A stretch of 64,000 nt of DNA from a virus (IMGVR_UViG_3300035180_001220:1-64000), one strand, 5' to 3'. Shown: positions 2,801 to 35,895, counted from the first letter of the stretch. Numbers and translations: made by a program. Notes: generated from the letters alone by a model not told the origin.

Positions 2801-2890
2801 GTGCAAACTTCCTCCCTAATATCAGTAACCTATCCGTTGACAGCATATGCTGCCGGCATTGCGTTACTCCCTGGGAGCCTTCACCCTTGA
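2801..2890 (+). CDS. leader peptide 1 (29 aa, MQTSSLISVTYPLTAYAAGIALLPGSLHP) of tRNA array 1 attenuator
   Basis: GTG start with GAGA SD; stop overlaps the antiterminator 5' strand; codons match the downstream tRNAs. Confidence 0.7.
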   Translation: MQTSSLISVTYPLTAYAAGIALLPGSLHP

Positions 2891-2947
2891 CTAGAAAGTA
2901 GAAAAACTTTTAAGATCAAGGGACTTCTTAGAAGTCCCTTTTCTTTT
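2884..2947 (+). terminator. attenuator 1: antiterminator (cccttga 2884-2890 / tcaaggg 2916-2922) exclusive with terminator (aagggacttc-tta-gaagtccctt-ttctttt)
   Basis: Two hairpins share aaggg; U-tract follows the second. Confidence 0.8.
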
Positions 2948-3017
2948 GTATAGAGATTTCTGTAAGTGGTTTGTTACAATTGTTGCAAACTATTTTCAAA
3001 AATAGCTAAAATAACTG

Positions 3018-3177
3018 TTTACATTGGTCTGATTGTAGTGTATAATTACTTATCAAACAAAAACGAAGGTGAATAACTGAAGCGGCGGATGCTCTAGATT
3101 TTTGCAGTGATTAACAGCAAATTTAGAAAGAAAGTTTGAAATAGTTGTTTACTTCAGTTTGAAGTATGATATAATTT
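3018..3177 (+). promoter_or_regulatory. two tandem sigma70-like promoters upstream of tRNA array 1
   Basis: tttacattggtctgattgtagtgtataat and tttacttcagtttgaagtatgatataat; boxA-like gtctttaaaa near 3246. Confidence 0.65.
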
Positions 3178-3349
3178 AATTTTACAGCAGCCTGATAGCT
3201 TACAGGTAATAGCCAAAGAACTTCATCGTAGGTTCCTTGTGATGGTCTTTAAAAATTCAGTAGAAACAATTAGCCGTACGGCTAATTGACTCTTGAATCC
3301 CTCGCGTAAGCTGTGGTTCTTTCTTGAGAAAATAAAACGTACGGACTTT

Positions 3350-3424
3350 GGGCACTTAACTCAGCGGTAGAGTTCTTCTTTTACACGGAAGCGGTCAGAG
3401 GTTCGATCCCTCTAGTGCCCACCA
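3350..3424 (+). tRNA. tRNA-Val(TAC)
   Basis: Cloverleaf, loop TT-TAC-AC, CCA end. Confidence 0.9.
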
Positions 3425-3638
3425 TTTCAAAATATCGTAGGTGATGATGCCCCGTACTAAGGGAAGCTTCCCTGATCTAAACGGTATTTTGAAATGGTAT
3501 GTGACAATAGCCCAACGATAGCTGACTTCGGAAGCGACAATAGGAGCACGATAACAATCCATTTATAAACGTACTTCTGAAGTTGGTTCAGTTAGACAGG
3601 GAGATCCAATAGCCTATGTCGTCAGTATGTTTATAAAT

Positions 3639-3720
3639 GGAGACGGAAAGCTGGTGGTTCCAGCAGCGAGTCTGTAAAACTCGGCCTTCGGGGAGAGGAT
3701 CGTAACCTCACGGCTCCACC
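3639..3720 (+). tRNA. tRNA-Tyr(GTA)
   Basis: cgagt-CTGTAAA-actcg, variable arm, atypical T loop. Confidence 0.8.
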
Positions 3721-3747
3721 GCCAGGTTAGCAGGTAATAAATAGACA

Positions 3748-4407
3748 ATGAAACAGCATTTGATCTATAAAATTACCAACACTCTCAACGGAAGATTTTA
3801 CGTTGGTATGCATACTGGCTTTGAAGATGACAATTACTTTGGTAGTGGTCGTCGAATTAAGGCAGAGATAAAGAAATATGGTAGAGAAAATTTTAAGAAA
3901 GAAATACTTGAAGTTTGCTCTGATAGAAAATCTCTTAAACAAAGAGAAGCAGCAATAGTTAATGAAGAACTTTTGATTGATCCCTTATGTCTTAACCTAA
4001 AGAATGGTGGAGAAGGTGGTGGTAAGTTTAAATCAAAAGAGCATCAGCAAAAATGCACCATTGCTGCAATAGGAACTGGTACTGCAACTCTCAGAAAAAG
4101 ATTACAGGATTCTGCTTATGAAAAACAGTTTAAGCAGAATGTTAGCAATAGTATGAAGGCTTATTATGCTGCAAATCCTCAGATGAAAAGCATAAATCAA
4201 GCGAAGGCAACTGCTGCTTCAAAATCGGTAGCAGTGTCGGAAAAGAGAAAAGAAACATTTGCTAAGATAAAATTCCAGCAAGGGGAAAATAATTCCCAGT
4301 TTGGTGTTAAGCGAATAGGAATAATAAAAGATGGGAAGATCAAAAAAGTTCTTCTTGATCAAGTTCAACTATTTTTAGATGATGGTTGGAAAAGAGGTTT
4401 TAAATAA
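3748..4407 (+). CDS. GIY-YIG (Seg-like) homing endonuclease
   Basis: IYKITN...FYVG..H...YFGSG...ENFKKEILE motif; inserted in the tRNA array. Confidence 0.9.
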   Translation: MKQHLIYKITNTLNGRFYVGMHTGFEDDNYFGSGRRIKAEIKKYGRENFKKEILEVCSDRKSLKQREAAIVNEELLIDPLCLNLKNGGEGGGKFKSKEHQQKCTIAAIGTGTATLRKRLQDSAYEKQFKQNVSNSMKAYYAANPQMKSINQAKATAASKSVAVSEKRKETFAKIKFQQGENNSQFGVKRIGIIKDGKIKKVLLDQVQLFLDDGWKRGFK

Positions 4408-4408
4408 T

Positions 4409-4486
4409 GCGGGATTAGTGTTCAACGGCCAAGCACAATAGTCTTCCAAACTGAAAGTACGAGTTCGAATCTCGTATCCCGCTCCA
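4409..4486 (+). tRNA. tRNA-Gly(TCC)
   Basis: gcgggat acceptor, CT-TCC-AA loop, TCCA end. Confidence 0.85.
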
Positions 4487-4500
4487 GTTAATTACGATTT

Positions 4501-4643
4501 TGTTAGTGAGAACTAAATGGGAAAGTTAGCGACAAGCTATTTGGAAAGTCTGGATTAATACAGAGCAAACTATTCAAATGGGGAGTGTATCACGATCGGT
4601 ATCGTACCGATATTAGATGGTTCGAATCCATCCACTAATAGCA
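4501..4643 (+). ncRNA. tRNA-like RNA with expanded anticodon region
   Basis: tgttagtg/cactaata acceptor-like stem, D-like aact..agtt, canonical gatggTTCGAATccatc T arm, ~85-nt structured middle. Confidence 0.5.
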
Positions 4644-4649
4644 ATTTTC

Positions 4650-4726
4650 CTCAGTGTTGGTTAGCAGCTATGCCGCCCTGTTTGGGGCGGAGACTTCGTG
4701 GGACTCGAGTCCCACGACTGAGACCA
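4650..4726 (+). tRNA. tRNA-Pro(TGG), divergent
   Basis: TT-TGG-GG loop, ctcagt/actgag acceptor, ACCA. Confidence 0.6.
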
Positions 4727-4759
4727 CGTAAATAGATTTTTAATCAGAGGAAATTAGAA

Positions 4760-5116
4760 ATGGATTATCGACCTATACAGCGATTTGCTGACTCAGAGTT
4801 TGCTTCACAGCTAAAATCTGAAGAGGATTCATTTCCTGATACTGATAAGATGCCGCTTGATGATTTTCCTGATACCGACTTTCAAGATAGTTTGGTTACT
4901 TCAGAAATGGAACCAGAGACAATGTCTTCTGAATTGTATGAAGAGTTTGAAGAGTCAAGAATGAACTCTAATCTGTCAAGAGAACAGAATGCTGCACCTA
5001 AAGAAAGATTTTGGCAGTTCGATTTTACTGATTCTGTTCAAGACATAAAAGATGGAACACTAGTCACGGAGATTAATGCCTCTGAGGATTTGTTCAACAA
5101 GTATTTCAATAAGTGA
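4760..5116 (+). CDS. acidic hypothetical protein
   Basis: 118-aa ORF with SD gagga. Confidence 0.6.
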   Translation: MDYRPIQRFADSEFASQLKSEEDSFPDTDKMPLDDFPDTDFQDSLVTSEMEPETMSSELYEEFEESRMNSNLSREQNAAPKERFWQFDFTDSVQDIKDGTLVTEINASEDLFNKYFNK

Positions 5117-5149
5117 TAGTTGTTTTAAGGCTAATGATTTGCAATTTAT

Positions 5150-5224
5150 GCGGGTGTAACTCAGTGGTAGAGTGGCAGCCTTCCAAGCTGTTCGTCGCAG
5201 GTTCAATCCCTGTCACCCGCTCCA
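5150..5224 (+). tRNA. tRNA-Gly(TCC)
   Basis: Canonical cloverleaf, TCCA. Confidence 0.9.
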
Positions 5225-5293
5225 AACAACAACGTGTTGCATTCAAGGTATGAAAATGCTATGCAACACTTTTATAACAAAAACAAGAAATAT

Positions 5294-5364
5294 TGCGGGA
5301 ATTCAGGGTATCCTCCAGTCTCATAAGCTCGGAGCAGAAGTTTCGAATACTTCCCCCGCATCCA
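5294..5364 (+). tRNA. tRNA-Met(CAT), degenerate with short D arm
   Basis: CT-CAT-AA loop, T-arm-like ttcgaat, TCCA. Confidence 0.45.
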
Positions 5365-5368
5365 CTAT

Positions 5369-5446
5369 GCCCTCGTTGCCAAATAGGAAAAGGCGCTTCA
5401 CTTAGAATGAAGAATAGCTAGGAGTGTGAGGTGCCCGTGGGTACCA
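5369..5446 (+). pseudogene. tRNA-Leu(TAG) pseudogene
   Basis: cttca-CTTAGAA-tgaag intact; T arm disrupted; ACCA. Confidence 0.55.
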
Positions 5447-5590
5447 GAATATTGTGTAAGTACGGTTAACCTTATGTGACTATGGACCTATTCTTCATCT
5501 GGCTATAGTGTACTTGATGTCCGTATTAGTATGAAGCGATTCATATCGGCAGTTGGTTGAAGACATAGACTGCGACAATAAATAGATAAT

Positions 5591-5675
5591 GCGAGCGTGA
5601 TGGAACTGGTAGACTTGGCAGTCTAAGAAGCTGCTGCCGAAAGGCGTGGGAGTTCGACTCTCCCCGCTCGCACCA
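5591..5675 (+). tRNA. tRNA-Leu(AAG)
   Basis: Leu-type D loop and long V arm; gcagt-CTAAGAA-gctgc. Confidence 0.85.
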
Positions 5676-5680
5676 AATTT

Positions 5681-5766
5681 GCCCGGGTGATGGAATGGTA
5701 GACTTGTCGCGCTTAGAACGCGATGCCATAAATGGCGTGGGGGTTCGAGTCCCTTCCTGGGCACCA
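5681..5766 (+). tRNA. tRNA-Leu(TAG)
   Basis: tcgcg-CTTAGAA-cgcga, long V arm, ACCA. Confidence 0.9.
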
Positions 5767-5772
5767 AAATAC

Positions 5773-5863
5773 GCGAGTGAGACTTGGTAGTCAGAGGAAC
5801 CTTATAAGTTCTTTGCCCCAGATTAGGGCCTTTGAGAGTGTTCGAATCACTCCGCTCGTACCA
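5773..5863 (+). tRNA. tRNA-Ile(TAT) with long variable arm
   Basis: ggaac-CTTATAA-gttct; ACCA. Confidence 0.75.
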
Positions 5864-5877
5864 ATTAGGAGTTGGCG

Positions 5878-6251
5878 TGTTGTTAAATGAACTTTATGAT
5901 GCTGAACAAGTAATCTTAAATGCACCTATGAATGAGATGGCTAATCTCTATCCAACTTCAACTGGTTTACCAGTTGTTATTTGGTTTGGTGAAGTTAGCG
6001 GGCAGCATGGTCCTAGAGTTAAAGTCAGTAATGCTCCTGGTAGATTTGATGTTAATAACTGTTTTGTTATTAGTGTTGCAAGAGAACCGGAAGTTTTAAC
6101 ACCTAAGAGTGTTAAGATAAAAACAGCAAAAATTGAAGACGCAACTGATTGGATTAAAATCAATTATGATGCGCTAATGGAACTATGGAAGATACACGAA
6201 TCTGGTGATGGTGATTCAACAGAAGTTCTTAGCAGATTAAAGAAAATTTAA
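5878..6251 (+). CDS. hypothetical phage protein (EMANL...HGPRVKV)
   Basis: SD aggag before GTG 5878; probable virion leader. Confidence 0.7.
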
Positions 6252-6253
6252 AT

Positions 6254-6346
6254 GCGAGTATGTAGGGAATCGGTAGACCGAGCTAGCTCAGAACTAATTG
6301 ACCCACGTAACTGTGGCTGGGAGTTCGAATCTCAATGGGAATACCA
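6254..6346 (+). pseudogene. tRNA-Leu(CAG) pseudogene
   Basis: 5' half, CT-CAG-AA loop and T loop present; acceptor 3' strand does not pair. Confidence 0.55.
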
Positions 6347-6440
6347 TTTCAAAGAGTAATGGATAGCGATGTAGTCCGAAAGGATCAAGAGATAATTTCA
6401 AAGACTCGCTTATAAACTGTATTCCATTACTCTTTGAAAT

Positions 6441-6472
6441 GGGGAGGTAGCTCAGTTGGTTAGAGTGCTGGA
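6441..6472 (+). pseudogene. isolated tRNA 5' half
   Basis: ggggaggTAGCTCAGTTGGTTAGAGTgctgga; no matching 3' half found nearby. Confidence 0.5.
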
Positions 6473-6578
6473 GGAACGAAAAGTTTGAAGATAGTGGGCC
6501 CACCTTGAATCACGGCTACGAGATTTTAAAGATTATTTTCTACCTTATCTATGATATAATAGACTAAGTAAAGATAAT

Positions 6579-6697
6579 GCGGGTATGGTGGAATTGGTAG
6601 ACACACCAGACTTCTACGGAACATCTGCTAACGCGGGTGTTCAAAAAAATTTGGCGGGGGCAACCCCATGCCGGTTCGATTCCGGCTACCCGCACCA
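6579..6697 (+). tRNA. tRNA-Leu(TAA) with 32-nt anticodon insertion (6614-6645)
   Basis: Leu body; removing ctacggaacatctgctaacgcgggtgttcaaa restores ccaga-CTTAAAA-tttgg. Confidence 0.75.
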
Positions 6698-6707
6698 TTA
6701 AGGAACA

Positions 6708-6941
6708 ATGCTGATTGTTTTAGCTACAGGATTGTTTCCAGTTTGTGATCGCAATGGTGGGAAAATTTCTGGTAGGTTGAATATCGCAAAAGCTAATATT
6801 CCAGTGCTAATTGAGCAGCGTACACAGAAAATGTTGAGAGATGGAACATATAATCACACAACACCGATTTGGCAGAATGCTTCTTTAACAGAGGAAGCGA
6901 AGAATTGCCACAATGCAATTAAGAGGCCATTCGCCGGGTGA
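6708..6941 (+). CDS. hypothetical protein
   Basis: 77-aa ORF with SD aagga; followed by an endonuclease C-terminal remnant. Confidence 0.45.
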   Translation: MLIVLATGLFPVCDRNGGKISGRLNIAKANIPVLIEQRTQKMLRDGTYNHTTPIWQNASLTEEAKNCHNAIKRPFAG

Positions 6942-7049
6942 AAAGAATAGTCAGTTTGAATCTTGTTGGGTAACTGATGGTGCAAAACCTGTCAAGATTA
7001 AGAATTTAGAGGAATATCTCATTAAAGGATATTTTAAAGGAAGAAAAAA

Positions 7050-7127
7050 GCCCTCGTAGCTCAGTTGGTAGTAGCACCGCACTTGTAATGCGGAGGTCGA
7101 CAGTTCGAATCTCGTCCGAGGGCACCA
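7050..7127 (+). tRNA. tRNA-Thr(TGT)
   Basis: ccgca-CTTGTAA-tgcgg, ACCA. Confidence 0.9.
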
Positions 7128-7415
7128 CTATCATGAAATGCATTAACAACGATAAAGATCATATTCAAGTTCTTTATGAACTCGGCATCTTAGACGATGA
7201 CGATGATTGGGAGTTGTTCTGCAAAATGCAAGCAGAAGAACCACAAATAGATACTGAAACTTGGTTTAAGTATCGTAGTGATGGAAGAATGGTAGAGTCG
7301 CTCTCTACAAAGTTTCAGCTTAACGATTTCTCGAAAGATGAATCGGCCGAAAGGTTTGCGGGAAAGTGAAACATCGGAATGATCTACCCTAGGCATTCCA
7401 AGAATAAGGAGATGT

Positions 7416-8012
7416 ATGAAGCTTCATGAACTAAAAGAAATGGCAATTAGGGGTGGGAATCTAACATCTCAAGCTGAAGAACACGCAAAGAGAATGGAAG
7501 TTTATTTGAAAGATGCCAAGCACATTGGTGATATTGATTCATTTCAAGTAAAACAAAAAGGCAAAGAATATGGAGTGTATAAAGGCGATGAGCTGGTAGC
7601 AATAGCTAATCTCGATCCTATTCCAAATGCATATTCTATTATTGATAATCTTTGGGTTAAGGAAAGTTTTAGAGGAAAGAAAATTCTTGCTAAGCTTCTA
7701 TGGTTTTTTAAATCTAGAGAGAATCACAATAAGATTCTATTTGGAAAAGGTCATACAGACGATACAGTTGATTTGCTAAAAGCAAATGGTTTATCTCTAT
7801 TTAAGAAATATTGGTTTGACCCAATAACAGGCAAAGAAGAAAAGTTTGATCCTAATACAGTAGATGATTATTATGGGTCAGGAAAAAGTAGATGGTCTCT
7901 AATGTTAGAGCATAATGGAGATGATAGTTTTTTAAACATGCCAAAGTTTAATACTTTGGAAGCTGGGTATATTTCCCAAGCATATGATTGGCAAATTGCT
8001 AATCATGAATAG
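7416..8012 (+). CDS. GNAT-like protein with MKLxEL virion leader
   Basis: IDNLWVKESFRGKKILAKLL acetyl-CoA-binding-like motif. Confidence 0.65.
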   Translation: MKLHELKEMAIRGGNLTSQAEEHAKRMEVYLKDAKHIGDIDSFQVKQKGKEYGVYKGDELVAIANLDPIPNAYSIIDNLWVKESFRGKKILAKLLWFFKSRENHNKILFGKGHTDDTVDLLKANGLSLFKKYWFDPITGKEEKFDPNTVDDYYGSGKSRWSLMLEHNGDDSFLNMPKFNTLEAGYISQAYDWQIANHE

Positions 8013-8122
8013 AATTTTTACTCTAGATGAAAATAACTGAGATGACCATCTAATCGCATAGACTGCCGGCAAAGTCGTTAAATTCCTTCTCAGGATTTGC
8101 AGTCATGAAGAGTAAAATAGTT

Positions 8123-8196
8123 AGCTCCATAGCTCAAAAGTAGAGCATACGACTGATAATCGTAAGACCTAGGGGCGGTACCTAGTGGAGCTACCA
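8123..8196 (+). tRNA. tRNA-Ile(GAT)
   Basis: tacga-CTGATAA-tcgta; atypical T loop; ACCA. Confidence 0.8.
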
Positions 8197-8205
8197 TAGT
8201 TTAAT

Positions 8206-8283
8206 GCCCACGTGGACAAATTGGTAAAGTCGGCTCTCTCAAAAGGAGTAGTTCTGTGAGTTCGAGTCTCACCGTGGGTACCA
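8206..8283 (+). tRNA. tRNA-Leu(CAA), short V arm
   Basis: gctct-CTCAAAA-ggagt; ACCA. Confidence 0.8.
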
Positions 8284-8730
8284 GGTTAGGATAGAAGATG
8301 AAAATACGAAATTTATTTCTTGTTCTGAAAGATCAGCTACCCTTAAAGCGATTGATTCGCAACTTAAGGAACGGAAACTTAAAAGGTTTGATTCACATTC
8401 GTTCTCATTTGAGAGCTGATGGGGCAAGCTAAGATAATATACAACACCAAAGCATCTGCTATTCGTGCAGCCGAACAAATGGCTAAGAAGACAGGCAGTA
8501 AGTTTGGTAAATGGAAGTGTATGCATTGTGATGGCTACCATATTGGTAAGAATAGAGTGCAGGATACTTAAAGAATTTGCAATTGACGTCATGGCGACCG
8601 CTGCCACAATGACAAAGCGGAACAGTTGCAGAACCAATGGTAGTGGATCTACAAGACTGACGAGATATCGTACGTAGGCTCGTTAAGTTAAAGCCGTCTA
8701 AGGATTGGACATCTAAGGCGCAGAAATTTT

Positions 8731-8861
8731 GGAGATGTAGTGTAATGGTAGCACGCGAAAAACATCGATCGCATTTTTTAGTTAGTAAAATAACCGGCCA
8801 GCTGATTGGTTATCACCCGTCACGTGCGAAGACCTCGGTTCGATTCCAGGTATCTCCACCA
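8731..8861 (+). ncRNA. tRNA-bodied (circularly permuted) Y-RNA-like molecule A
   Basis: ggagatg/tatctcc-ACCA acceptor plus D and T arms; anticodon arm replaced by the AACCG..GGTTATC module. Confidence 0.65.
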
Positions 8862-8899
8862 GATTACACTCTGTATAAATAGTGTTATAATAGATTAAG

Positions 8900-9042
8900 T
8901 TCTTAAATTTTAGAGTAACCGTTGGTCCTTGGTTATCTAACTTTATTTGGTATAAAAACCCGAGGTGGTTCGATTCCACCGTGCTCTAAGTGGACAAGGA
9001 GAGCAATTCCCAAGCCGTTTTTGTTGCCCTAAAATTTAAGAA
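8900..9042 (+). ncRNA. YrlA-like Y RNA
   Basis: ~20-bp terminal stem, AACCG..GGTTATC, internal T arm ggtggTTCGATTccacc, pyrimidine-rich 3' strand. Confidence 0.65.
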
Positions 9043-9046
9043 TTAA

Positions 9047-9134
9047 GGAAGTATGGCAGAGTGGTCGATTGCACCGCACTTGAAATGCGGAGGCTCTAAC
9101 GGGTCCGTGGGTTCGAATCCTACTACTTCCGCCA
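9047..9134 (+). tRNA. tRNA-Ser(TGA)
   Basis: Canonical, long V arm, GCCA. Confidence 0.92.
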
Positions 9135-9150
9135 GTTAGTTGAATATTTT

Positions 9151-9225
9151 GGGCTGATAGTATAATTGGGAATACAGTAGCTTTGCAAGCTTCAGTCCGG
9201 GGTTCGAATCCCCGTCGGTCCACCA
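9151..9225 (+). tRNA. tRNA-Ala(TGC)
   Basis: TT-TGC-AA loop, G3-U70, ACCA. Confidence 0.88.
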
Positions 9226-9232
9226 AAATAAC

Positions 9233-9316: not shown

Positions 9317-9335
9317 ATTTTTCTACTGAATTTAA

Positions 9336-9614: not shown

Positions 9615-9624
9615 AATAGATAAG

Positions 9625-30923: not shown

Positions 30924-31119
30924 TGTACATTCCTCCAGACCGTGGTATAATTACTCTATCAGCAGATTAAATGCTGTTGATAATCTAAAAGATTTGGAAA
31001 ATATTTCAGCAGACTGTTTACTTTGTCTGAGACTTAGGTTATAATTGCTTTTCAACAAAAATTCTTTTGTTGAAAACAATTTTGCAGGATGTCAGAAATT
31101 TTTTGGCATCCTATAAATA
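30924..31119 (+). promoter_or_regulatory. two sigma70-like promoters and a late promoter upstream of leader 2
   Basis: tgtacatt..N..tataat, tttacttt..N..tataat, TATAAATA at 31112. Confidence 0.65.
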
Positions 31120-31166
31120 AATTCATGCAGCAATGTTGCTGCGACAGTAAAGGAAAAGAGATTATT

Positions 31167-31295
31167 ATGTTTAGCACTTCTTTTAATATGACGAACATGT
31201 TTTGGCAGCAATGTCAAGATGCAGTCGTGCGTATTGAACGCAGTGAGCATGATAAAAGACTTTCAGCCCTTAGTGATGGAGCCGGATTAGCCTAA
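31167..31295 (+). CDS. leader peptide 2 (42 aa, MFSTSFNMTNMFWQQCQDAVVRIERSEHDKRLSALSDGAGLA) of tRNA array 2 attenuator
   Basis: SD-like aagga/gaga; last codons overlap the antiterminator; codons match the array-2 anticodons. Confidence 0.75.
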   Translation: MFSTSFNMTNMFWQQCQDAVVRIERSEHDKRLSALSDGAGLA

Positions 31296-31345
31296 AGGTC
31301 AATCCTACTTAACACACTAAGGGTACTGGAAAGGTACCCTTTTTT
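31267..31345 (+). terminator. attenuator 2: antiterminator (cccttagtg 31267-31275 / cactaaggg 31315-31323) exclusive with terminator (aagggtact-ggaaa-ggtaccctt-ttt)
   Basis: Overlapping hairpins share aaggg; U-tract follows. Confidence 0.8.
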
Positions 31346-31622
31346 ATTACTCCGGAAACTGTGAAGTTTTCGATCCTTGGTTTAGGAACTACCAAGTTAA
31401 AAAAGTCTGGACCGCTAAGAATCAGTCGAGTATCCTTCAGACTGCCGAGTGCGACAAAGGAAAATAAATTTGGTGAATGAAGTCTTCTTTTGAAGACTTC
31501 ATTCTTAAGGATTTCGTTCAAGTGGCGCTTGATTAAATTAGGTTGTGGAACCTAAGCGGAAATCCTTAAGAATGAACGAATTTAAACACCATAAATAACT
31601 CCACTAAGATGGAGTTATTAGA

Positions 31623-32249
31623 ATGGAATTATTCGAGCTGTTTAAGAGATTACCAGAAGATTATGCACATAGAACTGTAGCTGGACCTGATGATAGACCA
31701 CACAATAAACCCAAATTTGATCCTAGATATTCAAAAATTGTTGGAACATTTGACAATAAAGATGTCTGGGGGTCAAAGGAAATAAAGGGTTATGATATAT
31801 TTGGTTTTAGAGATGGTGAAAAAACGATTGCATATGTTATCTTAGATGAAAGGGAAGTTAAACCAAATACACAGGAATTTAAGGAACTCTGGACTGATTC
31901 CAATTATAGAAGAAAAGGTTTAGCATCAGGATTAATTTTATTTTTAACAACTAAATGTAAGACTAATTTGCTGCTAAGTCCAGTTGAACTAGTTAGCGAT
32001 GATGCTAGAGATATTTTTAAAGTATTGGGTAAATCTGGTAAGATAAAGATAGAAGATCAGGATGGCAAATTAGATACATTTGATGAAATTTTATCAGCTA
32101 AAATGAAAACTGATTATTCTTTGTTGATACGAGAAGATGTTATTCAGAAGAAGGTATTTGGCTCAAAGATGTTTTTAGAAAATAACCAATCAACACTGGC
32201 TGAACCCTATTCAATAGGGGTTATGCAAGATTGGTCTGAGTTTGAGTGA
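31623..32249 (+). CDS. GNAT-like protein with MELFEL leader
   Basis: ELWTDSNYRRKGLASGLI. Confidence 0.7.
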   Translation: MELFELFKRLPEDYAHRTVAGPDDRPHNKPKFDPRYSKIVGTFDNKDVWGSKEIKGYDIFGFRDGEKTIAYVILDEREVKPNTQEFKELWTDSNYRRKGLASGLILFLTTKCKTNLLLSPVELVSDDARDIFKVLGKSGKIKIEDQDGKLDTFDEILSAKMKTDYSLLIREDVIQKKVFGSKMFLENNQSTLAEPYSIGVMQDWSEFE

Positions 32250-32254
32250 ATTAT

Positions 32255-32328
32255 ATAGGTGTAGTTCCAATTGGTAGAACGGTGAACTCCAAATCCACAT
32301 GTTGCAGGTTCGAATCCTGCCACCTATG
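32255..32328 (+). tRNA. tRNA-Trp(CCA)
   Basis: CT-CCA-AA loop; CCA end not encoded. Confidence 0.8.
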
Positions 32329-32451
32329 CATTCGACATTTTGGCACATGCTGGGTAACCGATGGGGTTAAACCTACCAAAATAAAGAAAAGAAATTTAGG
32401 TGAGTATCTGACTAAAGGATATTCACTTGGCAGAAAATGAGAGTTTAGAGG

Positions 32452-32526
32452 GGTGACCTTAGTGTAGCGGTAGCACAAGAGATTGTGATTCTCTTAGTAT
32501 GGGTTCAACTCTCCATAGGTCACCCC
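32452..32526 (+). tRNA. tRNA-His(GTG)
   Basis: agaga-TTGTGAT-tctct; G-1:C73. Confidence 0.85.
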
Positions 32527-32539
32527 TGTAAACTCTTAT

Positions 32540-32615
32540 GTCCCATTCGTCTAGTGGCCAAGGACGCTGCCCCCTCAAGGCGGAGACTGCAGTTCGAATC
32601 TGCAACGGGACTCCA
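32540..32615 (+). tRNA. tRNA-Glu(CTC)
   Basis: ctgcc-CCCTCAA-ggcgg; TCCA. Confidence 0.82.
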
Positions 32616-32622
32616 AGTTATT

Positions 32623-32698
32623 GCTCGCGAAGTATTAGTTGGTGGTATGCAACCTTCGTAACATTGAGGATTCGGTTCGAGGCCGGACGCGAGCTCCA
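32623..32698 (+). tRNA. tRNA-Thr(CGT)
   Basis: TT-CGT-AA loop; gctcgcg acceptor; TCCA. Confidence 0.7.
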
Positions 32699-32704
32699 TT
32701 TTAT

Positions 32705-32777
32705 ATCCTGTAAGACTAGAAGCTGGTCGTTTGGCTTTCACCCAAGAGGAACGGGGCAGTACCCGTACAGGATACCA
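32705..32777 (+). tRNA. tRNA-Glu(TTC)
   Basis: ttgg-CTTTCAC-ccaa; atypical T loop; ACCA. Confidence 0.75.
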
Positions 32778-32783
32778 ATTTAT

Positions 32784-32859
32784 GTGCGTGTGATCTGAAA
32801 GGCTAGGAACGAGATTGCAACCCTCGATTATGCAGGTTCGACTCCTGTCACGCACTCCA
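32784..32859 (+). tRNA. tRNA-Cys(GCA)
   Basis: TT-GCA-AC loop; TCCA. Confidence 0.85.
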
Positions 32860-32867
32860 AAGTTAAT

Positions 32868-32931
32868 GACAACCGGTTTTACATAGGGTTATCCTTTTAA
32901 GATTTTCCCCCTTAGTATATTTTTCGTTGTC
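32868..32931 (+). ncRNA. minimal Y-RNA-like module
   Basis: gacAAC-CGG...gGGTTATC...pyrimidine tract-GTTgtc. Confidence 0.55.
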
Positions 32932-32934
32932 TTT

Positions 32935-33010
32935 GCCGATGTGGGACAGGGGTTGTCCAGCTGATTGTCTATCAGCCTTTATGACGGTTCGAGTCCGTTC
33001 GCCGGCGCCA
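32935..33010 (+). tRNA. tRNA-Asp(GTC)
   Basis: gctga-TTGTCTA-tcagc; GCCA. Confidence 0.75.
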
Positions 33011-33016
33011 ATTCAT

Positions 33017-33092
33017 GGTTCATTAGCTCAATTGGGAGAGCGCGACACTGTCACTGTCGAGGTAACCGGATCGAAACCGGTATGGGCCGCCA
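33017..33092 (+). tRNA. tRNA-Asp(GTC)
   Basis: cgaca-CTGTCAC-tgtcg; GCCA. Confidence 0.88.
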
Positions 33093-33097
33093 AATTT

Positions 33098-33172
33098 GTT
33101 CCGTGACGCAGCTAGTGTGGCGACTTGGCCTTCACCCAAGTGAGATGGGAGCAAAACCCATACGGAACTCCA
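33098..33172 (+). tRNA. tRNA-Glu(TTC)
   Basis: cttgg-CCTTCAC-ccaag; atypical T loop; TCCA. Confidence 0.72.
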
Positions 33173-33323
33173 TAGGACATCAGGCTTAGTTTTACTAAGA
33201 GAGGTTGGACTAAGGAAGCATCAGAAATTTTAAATGTAGGTCCAGCAGTAGTTAGAAGATGGATGCGAAGAGAAATACCTGAATTTTATGAAAGGTATTG
33301 TTCATTCGGTTCAAAAAGAATAT

Positions 33324-33398
33324 GGGTCTGAAACTTTGATGGTGAAGCTTTGCCTCTTAAGCAACTGGAATCCAGTTCGAATCTGGACAGACCCACCA
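33324..33398 (+). tRNA. tRNA-Lys(CTT)
   Basis: ttgc-CTCTTAA-gcaa; ACCA. Confidence 0.82.
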
Positions 33399-33404
33399 AA
33401 TTAT

Positions 33405-33480
33405 TGGCCAGTAGCTCAGTTGGTAGAGCGCAACGCTGTTAACGTTGATGTCATAGGTTCGATGCCTGTCTGGTCAGCCA
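33405..33480 (+). tRNA. tRNA-Asn(GTT)
   Basis: caacg-CTGTTAA-cgttg; GCCA. Confidence 0.92.
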
Positions 33481-33569
33481 AATTATCCTTGTGTTAAGTG
33501 GAGCCGCTCAGGTCCTCAGCCAATACGAAGCAATGTACTCTGCGATAAAGTACCTCAAGGGCCAAATAT

Positions 33570-33645
33570 TCCATTTTAGTATTCTCGGCGAGTACCCTCG
33601 GCTGTTAACCGAAAGAGGCTAGTTCGAATCCAGCAAATGGAGCCA
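33570..33645 (+). tRNA. tRNA-Asn(GTT)
   Basis: tcgg-CTGTTAA-ccga; GCCA. Confidence 0.8.
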
Positions 33646-33653
33646 AATTAAAT

Positions 33654-33728
33654 CCCTAGGGAGCATACTGGCCATGTAATCGGCTGATAACCGATAGACA
33701 GTGAGTTCGATTCTCACACTAGGGACCA
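33654..33728 (+). tRNA. tRNA-Ile(GAT)
   Basis: atcgg-CTGATAA-ccgat; ACCA. Confidence 0.78.
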
Positions 33729-33730
33729 AT

Positions 33731-33805
33731 CGTGATGTAGCATTGAGGTAATGCACCGGTCTCATACGCCGTCCCAAGTGAGTTCGATTCTCACCATCAC
33801 AACCA
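33731..33805 (+). tRNA. tRNA-Met(CAT), initiator-like
   Basis: CT-CAT-AC loop; C1:A72 mismatch; ACCA. Confidence 0.78.
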
Positions 33806-33812
33806 AAATATT

Positions 33813-33888
33813 GCTGCTTAAGCTAATCAAGTGAAAGCGTGACCCTGAAAAGGTTGAGAGACTGGCGCGATACCAGTAGGCAGCACCA
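33813..33888 (+). tRNA. tRNA-Phe(GAA)
   Basis: CT-GAA-AA loop; ACCA. Confidence 0.8.
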
Positions 33889-33897
33889 AAGATTATA

Positions 33898-33972
33898 TGC
33901 GGGATGAATCATAAAGTACGATACCTGGCTTTGAACCAGAGTAACAAGGGGCAGTACCTTGATCCCGTTCCA
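33898..33972 (+). tRNA. tRNA-Gln(TTG)
   Basis: ctgg-CTTTGAA-ccag; CCA. Confidence 0.72.
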
Positions 33973-33979
33973 ATTTATA

Positions 33980-34055
33980 TACCGGATTGGAGTAATTGGA
34001 AACTCAACAGACTCTGACTCTGTAGTTCAAGGTTCGAGTCCTTGGTCCGGTGCCA
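33980..34055 (+). tRNA. tRNA-Gln(CTG)
   Basis: acaga-CTCTGAC-tctgt; CCA. Confidence 0.88.
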
Positions 34056-34060
34056 AATTT

Positions 34061-34135
34061 TTCTGAACCGGCAGCCAAATAGGTTATCCAAACTTCTAAT
34101 TTGACATCACCCTATTAGCATTCATTTGTTCAGAA
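34061..34135 (+). ncRNA. minimal Y-RNA-like module
   Basis: ttctgAAC-CGG..aataGGTTATC...cctatt..ttcattt-GTTcagaa. Confidence 0.6.
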
Positions 34136-34145
34136 TAAAAAATAC

Positions 34146-34214
34146 TTCTCCATGTTGACATGGAAATCATACTAGCCTGCGAAGCTGGAGGTTCAATTCC
34201 TGATGGAGAAACCA
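34146..34214 (+). tRNA. tRNA-Arg(GCG), shortened V/T region (possibly pseudogene)
   Basis: ctagc-CTGCGAA-gctgg; ACCA. Confidence 0.55.
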
Positions 34215-34222
34215 AAAAATTT

Positions 34223-34299
34223 CTGGCATTAGCATAACTGGAGAATGTACGTGTCTTCTAAATACGTTAATGTAGGTTCGACTCCTACATGTCGGGCCA
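34223..34299 (+). tRNA. tRNA-Arg(TCT)
   Basis: cgtgt-CTTCTAA-atacg; GCCA. Confidence 0.85.
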
Positions 34300-34306
34300 A
34301 ATATAT

Positions 34307-34379
34307 GCGTCCTTAGTTCAATGGTAGAGCACTGCTTTGACTCGGCGGCAATGTAGATTCGATTTCTACAGGACGTACC
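34307..34379 (+). tRNA. tRNA-Val(GAC)
   Basis: ctgct-TTGACTC-ggcgg; gcgtcct/aggacgt acceptor. Confidence 0.7.
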
Positions 34380-34385
34380 GAATGT

Positions 34386-34472
34386 GGATAATGGTGCTGC
34401 TGGGCACGAGTTGGTTTGCTAAACCGACCTACTTCGAAAGAGGTAACGGTTCGAGTCCGTCTTCATCCTCCA
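34386..34472 (+). tRNA. tRNA-Ser(GCT)
   Basis: TT-GCT-AA loop, long V arm, TCCA. Confidence 0.72.
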
Positions 34473-34518
34473 GTTTTCAAATTGGGTACATCGGATATAA
34501 TCAAATAAAAGGAATATT

Positions 34519-35127
34519 ATGTCTGACTATCCAATGCTGCAAGAAATGCCCCAAGATATCGAATCGATTGACTGGCACAAGCTAAATGACTCTTCGGAAA
34601 ATGAAGAGCTGTATAGAAAACTGAATACAAGCAAATATAAAAAGCACATATTAACTGCCTTCGATAAAGCTGAAATTTTCCAGCAAGGCTCTCAATATTT
34701 TTGCTTAGACGCTAGAATGAAACAGATTACTTATTATATGAAGTATGAAGTGAAGAATAATGGAAAATTAGGAAGTTATGTCTGGCAATCATTAGTGTGG
34801 ACATACCCAGCAGCATCTTATATTTCTGGGGTTCCACAGAAAATGTTTTTTGAATATTTGCTTCCTAAATTTGGAACTATAATTGCTGATAGCCAGCAAA
34901 CATGGGATGGAAAAAGATTCTGGAGGCTGAGATTAGCAGAAGCATTTCAAAAAAAATTAAATGTTTATTTTTACGATTTTAGTAATCATGCTATTGAAAA
35001 GATAGATGACTATAAGCATTTTGAAGAATGCGATAAAAGAAGAGGAATCTGGGGTCCGTCAGATCTAAATCAGATGAAACGTATGGTGATCTCCAACAAA
35101 GATTTGTCACTTACAAAGGGTAGTTAA
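34519..35127 (+). CDS. hypothetical protein, distant member of the GNAT-like virion family
   Basis: LQEMP leader; IADSQQTWDGKRFW. Confidence 0.7.
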   Translation: MSDYPMLQEMPQDIESIDWHKLNDSSENEELYRKLNTSKYKKHILTAFDKAEIFQQGSQYFCLDARMKQITYYMKYEVKNNGKLGSYVWQSLVWTYPAASYISGVPQKMFFEYLLPKFGTIIADSQQTWDGKRFWRLRLAEAFQKKLNVYFYDFSNHAIEKIDDYKHFEECDKRRGIWGPSDLNQMKRMVISNKDLSLTKGS

Positions 35128-35206
35128 GCTGCACTGGGTGCGCAACTGTTTCGAAAGCAGATTGACTTAGCAATAGGTTGGGGTCCGATTCCTCAGCTAC
35201 CCGCCA
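35118..35206 (+). tRNA. tRNA-Ser(CGA)
   Basis: ctgt-TTCGAAA-gcag, long V arm, GCCA. Confidence 0.68.
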
Positions 35207-35213
35207 ATTTTAT

Positions 35214-35290
35214 GCCTTGATAGTTTACTAGTTAGAACATCCTCTGTACAAGTGGAAGAAAGTGGAGCGTAACCGCGGCGAGGTGGCAGC
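35214..35290 (+). pseudogene. degenerate tRNA
   Basis: gccttga-tagtt..agaac 5' half; 3' half decayed. Confidence 0.4.
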
Positions 35291-35352
35291 TACTCGAAAT
35301 CTGCAGCATCAAAGGCGAGCCTTTAAATTTAGGATGCTGCTCTAAGAAATTT

Positions 35353-35426
35353 GCTCTCATAGTCTAATGGTAGAATGCAACTTTGGTAAGGTTGAGATGG
35401 AAGTTCAATCCTCGCAGAGAGCACCA
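35353..35426 (+). tRNA. tRNA-Thr(GGT), degenerate T arm
   Basis: caact-TTGGTAA-ggttg; ACCA. Confidence 0.65.
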
Positions 35427-35599
35427 ACAATTTTAGAAGCAGCTGGTAGAACAGCAACTGGTAGTCAGGACGTACATCGGTGTATAGGCAAATATCGGAC
35501 GGACGACGTGGGCCGAATATTACCGAATGACCCTTTGACGGTCTTACAAGTTAGTGCAGCGTATCGAACCTGTAAATCTAACCTTCTAATCACATTTAT

Positions 35600-35674
35600 G
35601 GAGTCGTCGCCTAGAGGCTTGGCACGTGGCTTTTAACCACGCATACGTGGGTTCGAATCCCACCGGCTCTACCA
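35600..35674 (+). tRNA. tRNA-Lys(TTT)
   Basis: cgtgg-CTTTTAA-ccacg; ACCA. Confidence 0.88.
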
Positions 35675-35682
35675 AATCTTAT

Positions 35683-35810
35683 GCCGATGTAGTGTAATGG
35701 TAGCACACGCAAAACATCGTTTTTACCCTTTGTTCAGAAATGAACCGTTCAAAAATGGTTATCATCATTATCAGATCGGGGAGTTGGTTCGAATCCAACC
35801 AATCGGCACC
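35683..35810 (+). ncRNA. tRNA-bodied (circularly permuted) Y-RNA-like molecule B
   Basis: Same D arm as 8731 (gatgtagtgtaatggtagcac), aaaacatcg...GTTc-loop-gAACCG..GGTTATC, T arm, gccgat/atcggc acceptor. Confidence 0.65.
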
Positions 35811-35820
35811 GCAAATTTAT

Positions 35821-35895
35821 GCCTCCTTTGTTCAACGGACAGAATAAAAGTCTTCGAAGCTTTAGATGCGGGTTTGATTCCTGCAGTGGGCGCCA
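35821..35895 (+). tRNA. tRNA-Arg(TCG)
   Basis: aaagt-CTTCGAA-gcttt; GCCA. Confidence 0.75.

What the first reader, a model, noticed from the sequence alone, without database searches (positions are those of the whole stretch)
2801..35895. Codon-sampling leader-peptide attenuators matched to their own tRNA arrays: a candidate tRNA-pool sensor
Seen: two tRNA arrays with nearly complementary amino-acid sets. Array 1 carries V,Y,G,P,L,I,T,S(TGA),A,M. Array 2 carries W,H,E,C,D,K,N,F,Q,R,M plus T(CGT/GGT), V(GAC), S(GCT/CGA) and I(GAT). Each is preceded by a short ORF whose 3' end overlaps an antiterminator that excludes an intrinsic terminator, and each leader's codons mirror its own array. The two leaders share no sequence, only architecture and the CCCTT/AAGGG switch. 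Established: trp/his-type ribosome attenuation; phage tRNAs counter host anticodon nucleases. Inference: a ribosome that finishes the leader covers the antiterminator so the terminator forms; stalling at any depleted codon gives readthrough into the replacement tRNAs. Classical attenuators repeat one amino acid; these sample each codon roughly once. I know of no description of this arrangement.
Basis: partly seen in the sequence, partly recalled or inferred. Interest (0 to 1): 0.95.

Follow-up and report, generated by a model that had tools for sequence, protein, structure and literature searches.

The report
Test-gene switches before phage tRNA arrays
In this giant phage each of the two main blocks of tRNA genes is preceded by a tiny gene spelled almost only in the codons those tRNAs read and tied to a switchable transcription stop, so the phage may make spare tRNAs only when those codons are read slowly.

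Summary
Both leaders exist. Each is a short ORF behind a T4-type late-promoter box. The two boxes share 20 of 22 nt. Each ORF is followed by a strong intrinsic terminator whose 5' arm can pair with the ORF's 3' end instead.

For:
- L1 (2801-2890) holds a cognate codon for 12 of 12 array-1 anticodons.
- The first 31 codons of L2 (31167-31259) cover 15 of 17 array-2 anticodons.
- None of 877 (L1) or 785 (L2) other short ORFs of the contig is as one-sided.
- L2 is conserved. Eight homologous peptides of 33-43 aa from other metagenomes never use Leu, Gly, Pro or Tyr in the core, and Ala at one column only. These are the five amino acids with no tRNA in array 2.
- The seven full-length homologues and the window's own L2 each keep 14-15 of the 15 array-2 amino acids. 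His and Ile sit in different columns in different members.
- In three relatives' contigs the module lies about 200 nt before tRNA-Trp.

Against:
- Synonymous-codon choice is not matched to the arrays.
- Array 1 has two promoters of its own behind T1.
- L1 has no homologues, and its alternative helix is not significant (p 0.06).
- There are no expression data.

Best reading: ribosome-mediated attenuators gating tRNA arrays (confidence 0.5). The scan noted the same design on other phage DNA. I found no paper describing it.

The parts
2756..2777 (+). Late-promoter-like box of module 1 (TATAAATA at 2764-2771). It matches the module 2 box at 20 of 22 nt.
   Evidence: 2 matches at up to 3 mismatches, 0 expected. 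TATAAATA occurs 11 times on + and 1 time on -, mostly 20-50 nt before ORF starts. That it is a T4-type late promoter is my recall.
2801..2890 (+). Leader ORF L1: 29 codons plus TGA, GTG start, GAGA 6 nt upstream.
   Evidence: 12 of 12 array-1 anticodons have a cognate codon. 26 distinct codons of 29. No homologue found.
2884..2922 (+). Alternative helix AT1: CCCTTGA (2884-2890, includes the stop) pairs with TCAAGGG (2916-2922). It shares AAGGG with the terminator.
   Evidence: -16.3 kcal/mol; 7-bp helix, p 0.058 against shuffles.
2918..2948 (+). Intrinsic terminator T1 (10-bp stem, then a T-run).
   Evidence: -14.3 kcal/mol.
3018..3175 (+). Two early sigma-70-type promoters (3018-3046 and 3148-3175) between T1 and tRNA-Val.
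   Evidence: 11 of 12 and 10 of 12 matches; they belong to a promoter family with 16 sites on + and 1 on -.
3350..9699 (+). tRNA array 1, a loose block with ORFs between the tRNAs: Val, Gly x3, Leu x3, Ile x2, Thr, Ser, Ala, Pro, and a low-scoring Tyr.
30924..31045 (+). Two early promoters of module 2 (30924-30951 and 31017-31045). Both are conserved in L009.
31052..31142 (+). Structured 5' leader: hairpins at 31052-31073, 31086-31112 and 31127-31142. The late-promoter box 31104-31125 lies inside it.
   Evidence: L009 shows compensatory changes. I read compensatory changes in X6 by hand from the difference table.
31150..31160 (+). Shine-Dalgarno site of L2 (AAGGAAAAGAG). L009 has AAAAGGAAC aligned at the same place, with substitutions. 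X6 shows no listed change here.
31167..31295 (+). Leader ORF L2: 42 codons plus TAA. The core is codons 1-31 and the tail is codons 32-42.
31266..31324 (+). Alternative helix AT2: 31266-31275 pairs with 31315-31324 and encloses the stop codon and two small hairpins.
   Evidence: -26.9 kcal/mol, p 0.003, z -3.6 to -3.95.
31319..31347 (+). Intrinsic terminator T2 (9-bp stem, then T6).
   Evidence: -12.6 kcal/mol.
31342..31487 (+). Conserved non-coding spacer between T2 and the array.
   Evidence: few differences in X6 and X5. Single-base insertions at 31398 and 31400 rule out a conserved ORF.
31488..32249 (+). Insertion peculiar to this phage. It holds a GNAT acetyltransferase ORF (31623-32249) whose SD lies in a hairpin.
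   Evidence: PF00583, E 1.2e-4; three contigs join 31487 to 32250/32251 with 47-51 nt between.
32255..35895 (+). tRNA array 2, a tight block covering 15 amino acids, with no Leu, Gly, Pro, Ala or Tyr.

Best explanation
These are two ribosome-mediated transcription attenuators that gate readthrough into the phage's tRNA arrays.

Layout. Each module is a promoter, a short translated ORF, a helix formed by the ORF's 3' end with the 5' arm of an intrinsic terminator, and the terminator itself.

Mechanism (inferred).
- The alternative helix forms first, so naked RNA reads through.
- A ribosome that runs to the stop codon keeps the upstream strand away from its partner. The terminator then forms and transcription stops.
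- A ribosome that stalls earlier, in roughly the first 23 codons of L1 or the first 28 of L2, leaves the helix free. Transcription then continues into the tRNA genes.

What is sensed. The leader holds about one codon for nearly every tRNA species of its own array, so slow decoding of any of them raises synthesis of that array. This is a feedback on tRNA supply.

Scope.
- Module 2 lies between the only detectable promoters and array 2. It is conserved in related uncultured phages.
- Module 1 can act only on transcripts from its late-type promoter, because array 1 also has two early promoters of its own.
For: Anatomy
- Terminators. Competing helices and their energies.
- L2's helix: p 0.003, and it is the minimum-free-energy fold.
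- No promoter-family site lies between 31017 and 43513. No TATAAATA lies between 31112 and 35898.

Signs that L2 is translated
- The SD region is kept while the 5' leader diverges. In X6 about 25 substitutions and 5 indels fall in 31047-31149.
- Only 3 substitutions fall in 31167-31250, two of them synonymous, and there is an in-frame ATA insertion.
- Of the 8 homologues, 7 are 41-43 aa and start at the same ATG. The eighth, P0005, is 33 aa.

Linkage
- 3 contigs from 3 runs join the module to tRNA-Trp with 47-51 nt in place of 31488-32249.

Mirror
- L1 covers 12 of 12 array-1 anticodons (P 3e-4 against gene windows, 1e-3 against short ORFs) and 5 of 21 array-2 anticodons.
- L2 core covers 15 of 17 array-2 anticodons (P 5e-4) and 5 of 14 array-1 anticodons.
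- 0 of 877 and 0 of 785 other short ORFs reach their own-minus-other coverage.
- The L009 core covers 14 of 17 (P 0.005).

Family
- Of 83 column-residue states in the core, 1 is L, G, P, Y or A.
- 0 of 52 substitutions go to those residues, against 15.9 expected (P < 5e-6).
- Coverage of the 15 array-2 amino acids is 117 of 120, against 110 +/- 1.75 after column shuffling (P 5e-5). For six divergent members it is 87 of 90 (P 7e-4).
- His occurs once per member, in five different columns.

Link between the modules
- They share a 22-nt box, 20 of 22 nt identical, with 0 matches expected by chance.
Against: - There are no expression, termination or ribosome data at all.
- The fraction of leader codons that the array can read is not significant with default tRNA sets (P 0.07-0.24).
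- Given the peptide, synonymous choice does not favour array codons (P 0.70 and 0.24). The match is therefore to amino acids and to coverage, not to isoacceptors.
- L2's invariant Arg codons CGT and CGC, and also TCT and GCA, have no array-2 reader. L009 also uses ACA twice.
- Seven core positions are invariant (F12, W13, Q17, V21, R22, E24, R25). A pure codon sampler does not need that.
- L1: no homologue; helix p 0.058; two promoters lie behind T1; coverage falls to 12 of 15 (P 0.02-0.035) if the scattered downstream tRNAs are counted.
- L1's codon diversity is also what non-coding sequence would give (P 0.06 under uniform synonymous use).
- No anti-antiterminator (trp 1:2 type) was found.
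Confidence: 0.5

Rival explanations
1. L2 encodes a working 42-aa microprotein, for example an anti-defence or translation-related peptide, expressed with the tRNAs. T2 is simply its leaky terminator. The odd alphabet reflects the peptide's structure, and the match to the array is coincidence. L1 is an unrelated chance ORF.
For: The family has seven invariant residues and a fixed length of 41-43 aa in 8 of its 9 members. The peptide order is conserved at 39-61% core identity. Small phage peptides with a function are known (T4 Stp, recalled).
Against: - AlphaFold gives only a generic helix at pLDDT 65.7. A helix without Leu or Ala is odd.
- His and Ile sit in different columns in different members, while every member keeps one.
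- The C-terminal tail is read in different frames in P0003 and L009 from near-identical DNA. The tail therefore looks conserved as RNA, not as protein.
- No Pfam family matches.
- This reading does not explain L1's 12 of 12 coverage or the shared box.
Confidence: 0.2
2. The modules are attenuators, but they sense something other than the array's own tRNAs. The signal could be overall coupling of translation to transcription, or a sequence-specific arrest of the nascent peptide (TnaC or SecM style) triggered by a factor or metabolite.
For: The motif FW..Q...VR.ER is invariant, lies at a fixed distance from the stop and could sit in the exit tunnel (inference). Codon-level matching is absent.
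Against: An arrest peptide explains none of the following: avoidance of exactly the five amino acids missing from array 2; the pangram-like retention of the other fifteen; or L1, which has a different peptide but the same coverage property.
Confidence: 0.15
3. Nothing regulatory is here. T1 and T2 are ordinary terminators of small late transcripts or sRNAs, the competing helices are incidental, and the codon mirror is a post hoc pattern.
For: L1's helix has p 0.058. Array 1 has its own promoters. Runs of array-1 amino acids of 25 or more occur 7 times in the six frames of the contig. The tests of decodable fraction are not significant under strict definitions. Both regions fold well as RNA.
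Against: L2's ORF is conserved, with an in-frame indel, while the spacer behind it tolerates frameshifts. Out-of-sample family tests give P < 1e-3. Both leaders are the extreme of all short ORFs, each in its own direction. Array 2 has no other detectable promoter.
Confidence: 0.15

Closest known systems
Multivalent leader-peptide attenuators of enterobacterial amino-acid operons (ilvGMEDA: Leu/Val/Ile; thr: Thr/Ile), and the single-amino-acid trp, his, leu and phe leaders (recalled, no call)
   Same: A short translated leader ORF. An intrinsic terminator with a mutually exclusive alternative helix. Ribosome position decides which structure forms. The regulatory codons are cognate to the operon's product.
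   Different: - The regulated genes here are tRNAs, not biosynthetic enzymes.
- There are no runs of one codon. About one codon stands for each of 12-18 tRNA species.
- No 1:2-type anti-antiterminator was found, so untranslated RNA should read through.
T-box riboswitches (tRNA-sensing leaders of aminoacyl-tRNA synthetase and amino-acid genes)
   Same: They sense tRNA status and switch between a terminator and an antiterminator.
   Different: A T-box binds one uncharged tRNA directly and needs no ORF. No T-box or any other Rfam family matched here.
The long tRNA array (trn operon) of Anabaena PCC 7120, induced by translational stress
   Same: An accessory tRNA array that is switched on when translation is impaired.
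   Different: It is controlled by the protein repressor TrcR (PMC10272220, abstract read). A term search of PMC8421152 gave 0 occurrences of 'attenuat', 'leader peptide' and 'terminator' in the main text. It is a cellular array, not a phage one.
Phage tRNAs as a counter to tRNA-targeting defences (PMC10264068, PMC11555353; only titles and abstract starts in the listing were seen)
   Same: These papers give a reason why a phage would need spare tRNAs on demand.
   Different: Judging by the listing alone, they concern the tRNAs themselves and not a sensor that controls them.

Membership tests
Ribosome-mediated (leader-peptide) transcription attenuator | A short ORF with a ribosome-binding site in the transcribed leader | tested here: met
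   - L2: the ATG at 31167 has AAGGAAAAGAG upstream. The SD region is kept in L009 (with substitutions) and X6. The ORF is kept in 8 homologues, with an in-frame indel.
- L1: GTG with GAGA 6 nt upstream, like ORF 2430, but no homologue.
- Translation itself was not observed.
Ribosome-mediated (leader-peptide) transcription attenuator | An intrinsic terminator between the leader ORF and the regulated genes | tested here: met
   T1 at 2918-2940 (10 bp, T-run) and T2 at 31319-31341 (9 bp, T6)..
Ribosome-mediated (leader-peptide) transcription attenuator | A mutually exclusive antiterminator that a ribosome on the ORF's end can block | tested here: inconclusive
   - L2: 9 Watson-Crick pairs plus a G-U, p 0.003, and it is the minimum-free-energy fold.
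- L1: 7 bp including the stop codon, p 0.058.
- Conservation in relatives is seen only indirectly: the tail motif [AT]L[SCG], and a 30-nt loose end in X10.
Ribosome-mediated (leader-peptide) transcription attenuator | Regulatory codons cognate to the product of the regulated genes | tested here: met
   Anticodon coverage is 12 of 12 for L1 and 15 of 17 for L2, and both leaders are the extreme of all short ORFs. Synonymous choice is not enriched, and there are no codon runs.
Ribosome-mediated (leader-peptide) transcription attenuator | The regulated genes depend on readthrough, with no promoter in between | tested here: inconclusive
   - Met for array 2. The promoter-family scan finds no site between 31017 and 43513. 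The general scan lists only weak 9-of-12 matches at 31141 and 32866.
- Not met for array 1: promoters at 3018 and 3148.
Ribosome-mediated (leader-peptide) transcription attenuator | An anti-antiterminator or pause hairpin (trp 1:2) that gives termination without translation | tested here: not met
   The folds show no upstream partner for the 5' strand of either alternative helix.
Ribosome-mediated (leader-peptide) transcription attenuator | Readthrough responds to supply of charged tRNA | not testable with these tools
   No RNA data. All four runs laid were DNA contigs.
T-box riboswitch | Specifier loop, T-box sequence and Stem I, as scored by Rfam's model | tested here: not met
   No match at gathering score in the window. 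No match at E <= 5 in 30900-31700 or 2700-3400.

The most novel reading that the evidence does not exclude
Jumbo phages carry 'pangram' leader peptides. Selection keeps at least one codon for every tRNA species of the array behind the leader, and none for the tRNAs kept elsewhere. His and Ile codons sit at different positions in different homologues, but every full-length member keeps at least one of each. The leader plus its terminator switch then acts as a many-input feedback sensor that tops up a whole block of tRNAs when any one of them becomes limiting, for instance under host anticodon nucleases. If so, the leader's alphabet should predict the array's content in every relative.
Probability: 0.45. 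Interest if true: 0.9.

Novelty: new variant of a known kind. Interest (0 to 1): 0.8.

Why it matters
Why phages carry tRNA arrays is still debated, and how those arrays are controlled is almost unknown. If this reading is right:
- It would extend trp-type attenuation from one to three amino acids to a dozen or more tRNA species.
- The target would be tRNA genes rather than biosynthetic enzymes.
- Phages would gain a demand-driven supply of spare tRNAs.
- It would give a readable rule, that the leader alphabet equals the array content, which can be checked on any genome.
- It would provide a compact natural sensor of decoding capacity.

Tried and rejected
Relatives' DNA
- The phages collection gave no match by DNA or by protein (the four hits have E 7-9 and are chance).
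- IMG/VR gave nothing with ORF 2430-2747, the GNAT ORF, PnuC, the L2 peptide or its family alignment, or a tRNA-Trp 30-mer.
- Genome contigs gave nothing with the exact 24-mer. The degenerate pattern gave two chance hits inside unrelated genes (L010 and L011).
- The one metagenome scan gave a single 1118-bp contig, L009. It ends just after the L2 stop codon, so its terminator is unseen.
The contigs of P0003 and P0005-P0013 therefore could not be read, and co-variation of leader and array was not tested.
- The difference table of read laying was cut ('12 more are not shown'). Changes in X5, X6 and X10 inside 31222-31487, where compensation in AT2 and T2 would show, are unseen.

Other dead ends
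- The 68-aa ORF from 31089 is rejected. Its ATG is buried in a hairpin, it has no SD, and the frame is broken in L009.
- Rfam gave no family for either leader.
- L1 as a 49-aa ORF from 2741 has no homologue.
- The 22-nt box is not specific to the leaders. The same box precedes an ordinary gene in an IMG/VR contig with no tRNA (L012). It is more likely a promoter-type motif.
- The spacer 31342-31622 is not repeated in this contig.
- My recollection that the Anabaena tRNA operon is controlled by attenuation was wrong.
- A RiPP-precursor reading was considered and dropped, because only two residues follow the Gly-rich tail.
- Paper searches listed no account of leader-peptide attenuators before tRNA genes. 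I saw only listings, except for PMC8421152 (term search) and PMC10272220 (outline and abstract). Supplements were not opened.

Full report
WHERE THIS LIES. The window is the first 64 kb of a 112,303-bp viral contig that CheckV rates 32% complete. It is therefore a fragment of a phage of roughly 350 kb. PHROG matches to long tail fibre and baseplate proteins, an RNase H, a helicase and a Ro60-like RNA-binding protein suggest a T4-like myovirus. No cultured phage resembles it, by DNA or by protein.

THE tRNAs. ARAGORN finds 35 tRNAs, or 37 when inserts are allowed. Rfam finds 36.
- Array 2 (32255-35895) is tight. At default thresholds it serves 15 amino acids: W, H, E, C, D, K, N, I, M, F, Q, R, V, S and T. 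It has no tRNA for Leu, Gly, Pro, Ala or Tyr at any threshold I tried.
- Array 1 (3350-9699) is loose, with ORFs between the tRNAs, one of them a GIY-YIG endonuclease. It serves V, G, L, I, T, S, A and P, mostly through UNN anticodons, plus a low-scoring Tyr.
- More tRNAs lie scattered downstream: a TTA-anticodon tRNA at 11514, Asn at 13148, one with an insert at 15121, and Arg at 21942.
- The two sets are therefore nearly complementary. In effect they split into family-box and split-box amino acids.

MODULE 1.
- ORF 2430-2747 ends at 2747.
- TATAAATA follows at 2764-2771, then GAGA, and then GTG at 2801. The GTG opens a 29-codon ORF that ends in TGA at 2888-2890.
- The last seven bases, CCCTTGA, can pair with TCAAGGG at 2916-2922. 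That segment shares AAGGG with the 10-bp terminator T1 at 2918-2940.
- The alternative fold (-16.3 kcal/mol) is about as strong as T1 (-14.3). A 7-bp helix arises in 5.8% of shuffles.
- Two strong promoters follow T1, at 3018-3046 and 3148-3175. They belong to a family T[TG]TAC[AT]-N16-18-TATAAT with 16 sites on the + strand and 1 on the - strand.
- Array 1 is therefore transcribed without passing L1. L1 could add only readthrough from upstream.

MODULE 2.
- Two promoters of the same family (30924, 31017) are followed by three hairpins.
- TATAAATA lies at 31112-31119 and a Shine-Dalgarno site at 31150-31160.
- The ATG at 31167 opens a 42-codon ORF that ends at 31295.
- The 68-codon ORF from 31089 is not real. 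Its ATG lies inside a hairpin, it has no SD, and the frame is broken in the relative L009.
- GCCCTTAGTG (31266-31275) pairs with CACTAAGGGT (31315-31324). That segment overlaps terminator T2 at 31319-31341.
- This fold (-26.9 kcal/mol) beats T2 (-12.6) and is the minimum-free-energy structure. Its z-score is -3.6 to -3.95, and a helix this long arises in 0.3% of shuffles.
- No promoter-family site lies between 31017 and 43513, and no TATAAATA between 31112 and 35898. The general scan lists only weak 9-of-12 matches at 31141 and 32866.
- Array 2 therefore appears to depend on passing T2.

A SHARED BOX.
- Contrary to the finding, the leaders share sequence. 2756-2777 and 31104-31125 agree at 20 of 22 positions around TATAAATA, with none expected by chance.
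- TATAAATA occurs 11 times on the + strand and once on the - strand, mostly 20-50 nt before ORF starts.
- I recall this as the T4 late-promoter motif. The same box precedes an ordinary gene in an unrelated IMG/VR contig. I read it as a promoter, not as a leader-specific signal.
- It gives each leader ORF its own start of transcription.

RELATIVES OF L2.
- One word-based search gave a 42-aa homologue, P0003.
- The metagenome scan gave L009, which has the same tandem promoters, hairpins and SD.
- The exhaustive HMMER search gave seven more small peptides: six of 41-43 aa, one of them being L009's own product (P0007), and one of 33 aa (P0005). It also gave three long repetitive proteins that I set aside as spurious.
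- Laying contigs of four runs on 30900-32300 showed three things:
  1. Three contigs from three runs join 31487 to 32250/32251 with 47-51 nt between. In those relatives the GNAT ORF is absent and the module lies about 200 nt before tRNA-Trp.
  2. In X6 the 5' leader carries about 25 substitutions and 5 indels in 31047-31149. The ORF core 31167-31250 carries 3 substitutions, two of them synonymous, and an in-frame ATA insertion. The spacer behind T2 carries single-base insertions.
  3. Hairpin 31127-31142 is GCAGCA/UGCUGC here and GUCGCAA/UUGCGAC in L009. By my hand reading of the table it has yet another sequence that still pairs in X6.
- The C-terminal tails of P0003 and L009 are the same DNA read in two frames. 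Most members keep [AT]L[SCG], which fits a conserved CCCTTNGT strand. The tail therefore looks conserved as RNA and the core as codons.

DOES THE LEADER MIRROR THE ARRAY? Several statistics disagree, and all are given here.
- Fraction of leader codons that the array can read:
  - L1: 15 of 29 (P 0.07-0.16) with default tRNAs and strict wobble. This rises to 26 of 29 (P 1e-3 to 0.02) only with low-scoring tRNAs and four-way U34 reading.
  - L2 whole: 24-29 of 42 (P 0.1-0.24).
  - L2 core: 22-27 of 31 (P 0.03 to 1e-3).
- Given the peptide, synonymous choice does not favour array codons: P 0.70 and 0.24.
- The statistic that fits the claim of 'sampling' is coverage, that is, how many anticodon species of an array find a cognate codon in the leader.
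  - L1 covers 12 of 12 default array-1 anticodons (14 of 14 with Tyr and Leu-TAA). The mean for 29-codon windows of genes is 6.7. P is 3e-4 against gene windows and 1e-3 against 877 short ORFs.
  - L1 covers only 5 of 21 array-2 anticodons.
  - L2's core covers 15 of 17 (18 of 21) array-2 anticodons (P 5e-4) and 5 of 14 array-1 anticodons.
  - By own-minus-other coverage, none of 877 and none of 785 other short ORFs of the contig reaches L1 or L2.
- Sensitivity of the L1 result: 12 of 13 if tRNA 6579 is Arg-TCT as ARAGORN calls it (P 0.003). It is 12 of 15 if the scattered Asn, Arg and Glu tRNAs that I had left out are counted (P 0.02-0.035).
- L1 also uses 26 distinct codons in 29 (P 0.009). 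Given its peptide, that is unusual for a gene (P 0.008) but nearly what uniform usage gives (P 0.06).

OUT-OF-SAMPLE TEST ON THE L2 FAMILY.
- The alignment has nine sequences: the window's own L2 and eight homologues. In the 31 core columns there are 83 column-residue states. One of them (Ala at column 19) belongs to L, G, P, Y or A.
- Of 52 substitutions away from the column consensus, none goes to those five residues. BLOSUM62 predicts 15.9 (P < 5e-6).
- Only 4 of 18,059 31-residue windows of this phage's proteins have at most one such residue.
- The tails are 27-73% L, G, P, Y or A.
- Conversely, each of the eight full-length members holds 14 or 15 of the 15 array-2 amino acids. The total is 117 of 120, against 110 +/- 1.75 when residues are shuffled within columns (P 5e-5).
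- With six members that share 12-19 of 31 core residues, the total is 87 of 90 (P 7e-4).
- His occurs exactly once in each member, at columns 28, 28, 28, 15, 14, 29, 14 and 30. Ile appears elsewhere in exactly the three members that lost it at column 23.
- Only 20 of 18,059 protein windows hold all fifteen.
- Column shuffling ignores relatedness, so these P values are optimistic.
- Exceptions: P0011 and P0013 have no Cys, and P0010 has no Ser in the core.
- This composition-level constraint is what a sampler predicts. It is not what I would expect of an ordinary folded peptide. AlphaFold gave only a generic helix at pLDDT 65.7.

MECHANISM (INFERRED).
- The alternative helix is transcribed first and is the stronger fold, so untranslated RNA should read through.
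- A ribosome at the stop codon covers the L1 upstream strand. In L2 it sits between the two strands of the helix. Either way the terminator can form.
- A ribosome stalled about 15 nt or more upstream leaves the helix free. That corresponds to codons 1-23 of L1 and 1-28 of L2.
- This fits the split of L2 into a matched core and an unmatched tail. It also fits the position of two of L1's three foreign codons (AGC, CAC) among its last six.
- None of this has been observed.

WEAK POINTS.
- Seven invariant residues point to an added constraint at the level of the peptide or the RNA.
- CGT, CGC, TCT and GCA in L2, and ACA in L009, are not read by array 2.
- L1 stands on one sequence.
- Array 1 has its own promoters.
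- The hosts, and the arrays of the relatives, are unknown.

WHAT IS KNOWN.
- In mechanism the modules resemble multivalent leader-peptide attenuators (recalled). They meet the ORF, terminator and cognate-codon criteria.
- They meet the promoter-dependence criterion for array 2 only. They lack a 1:2-type hairpin.
- They are not T-boxes.
- The nearest case in print that I could check is the stress-induced tRNA array of Anabaena, which is under the repressor TrcR and not under attenuation.
- Five paper searches listed nothing on leaders before tRNA genes.
- Earlier notes of this scan report the same design in other phage genomes. I could not test those notes and do not count them as evidence.

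VERDICT.
It remains unproven.
- Confidence in the attenuator-sensor reading is 0.5. It is higher for module 2 than for module 1.

Noticed in passing
6579-6697 and 15121-15231: Two tRNAs carry related inserts of 32 and 34 nt in the anticodon loop. ARAGORN places both at 37/38 and calls them Arg-TCT and Glu-CTC. The one at 6579 has a long variable arm, which fits Leu better than Arg.
   Followed up: partly
11514-11604 and 22673-22750: Two suppressor-like tRNAs: anticodon TTA (91 nt, long variable arm; default ARAGORN threshold) and CTA (lowered threshold only). The ORFs I read were open under table 11, so recoding is not evident.
   Followed up: no
31488-32249: A GNAT acetyltransferase ORF (31623-32249) with its Shine-Dalgarno site inside a hairpin (31594-31619). 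An 18-bp alternative stem (TTCATTCTTAAGGATTTC / GAAATCCTTAAGAATGAA) lies just upstream. The segment is inserted between the leader and tRNA-Trp, and three relatives' contigs lack it.
   Followed up: partly
whole contig (3018, 3148, 14869, 17302, 23606, 30924, 31017, 43513, 45680, 47951, 63274 and five more beyond the window): An early promoter family with extended conservation (aactgTKTAC ... GTATAATtacttat): 16 sites on + and 1 on -. The sites are often in tandem pairs about 100-130 bp apart.
   Followed up: partly
3180-3349: The 170-nt transcribed leader between promoter 3148 and tRNA-Val is structured (z -2.5) and holds a perfect 9-bp hairpin at 3267-3288. It has no ORF and no Rfam match.
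   Followed up: no
44055-45668: A 537-aa protein matches phrog_850, 'RNA-binding protein' (E 1e-71). Rfam gave only a weak YrlA match (22 bits) at 33366-33430.
   Followed up: no
1476-2084; L009 38-730: A PnuC-type nicotinamide mononucleotide transporter (PF04973, E 7e-46) lies upstream of module 1. In the relative L009, judged by eye, a Sir2-like NAD-dependent deacetylase gene precedes module 2.
   Followed up: no
31162-31255: The L2 coding region can fold into a long hairpin that pairs the start-codon region with codons 27-30 (z -2.5). This may add RNA-level constraint on the conserved core.
   Followed up: no
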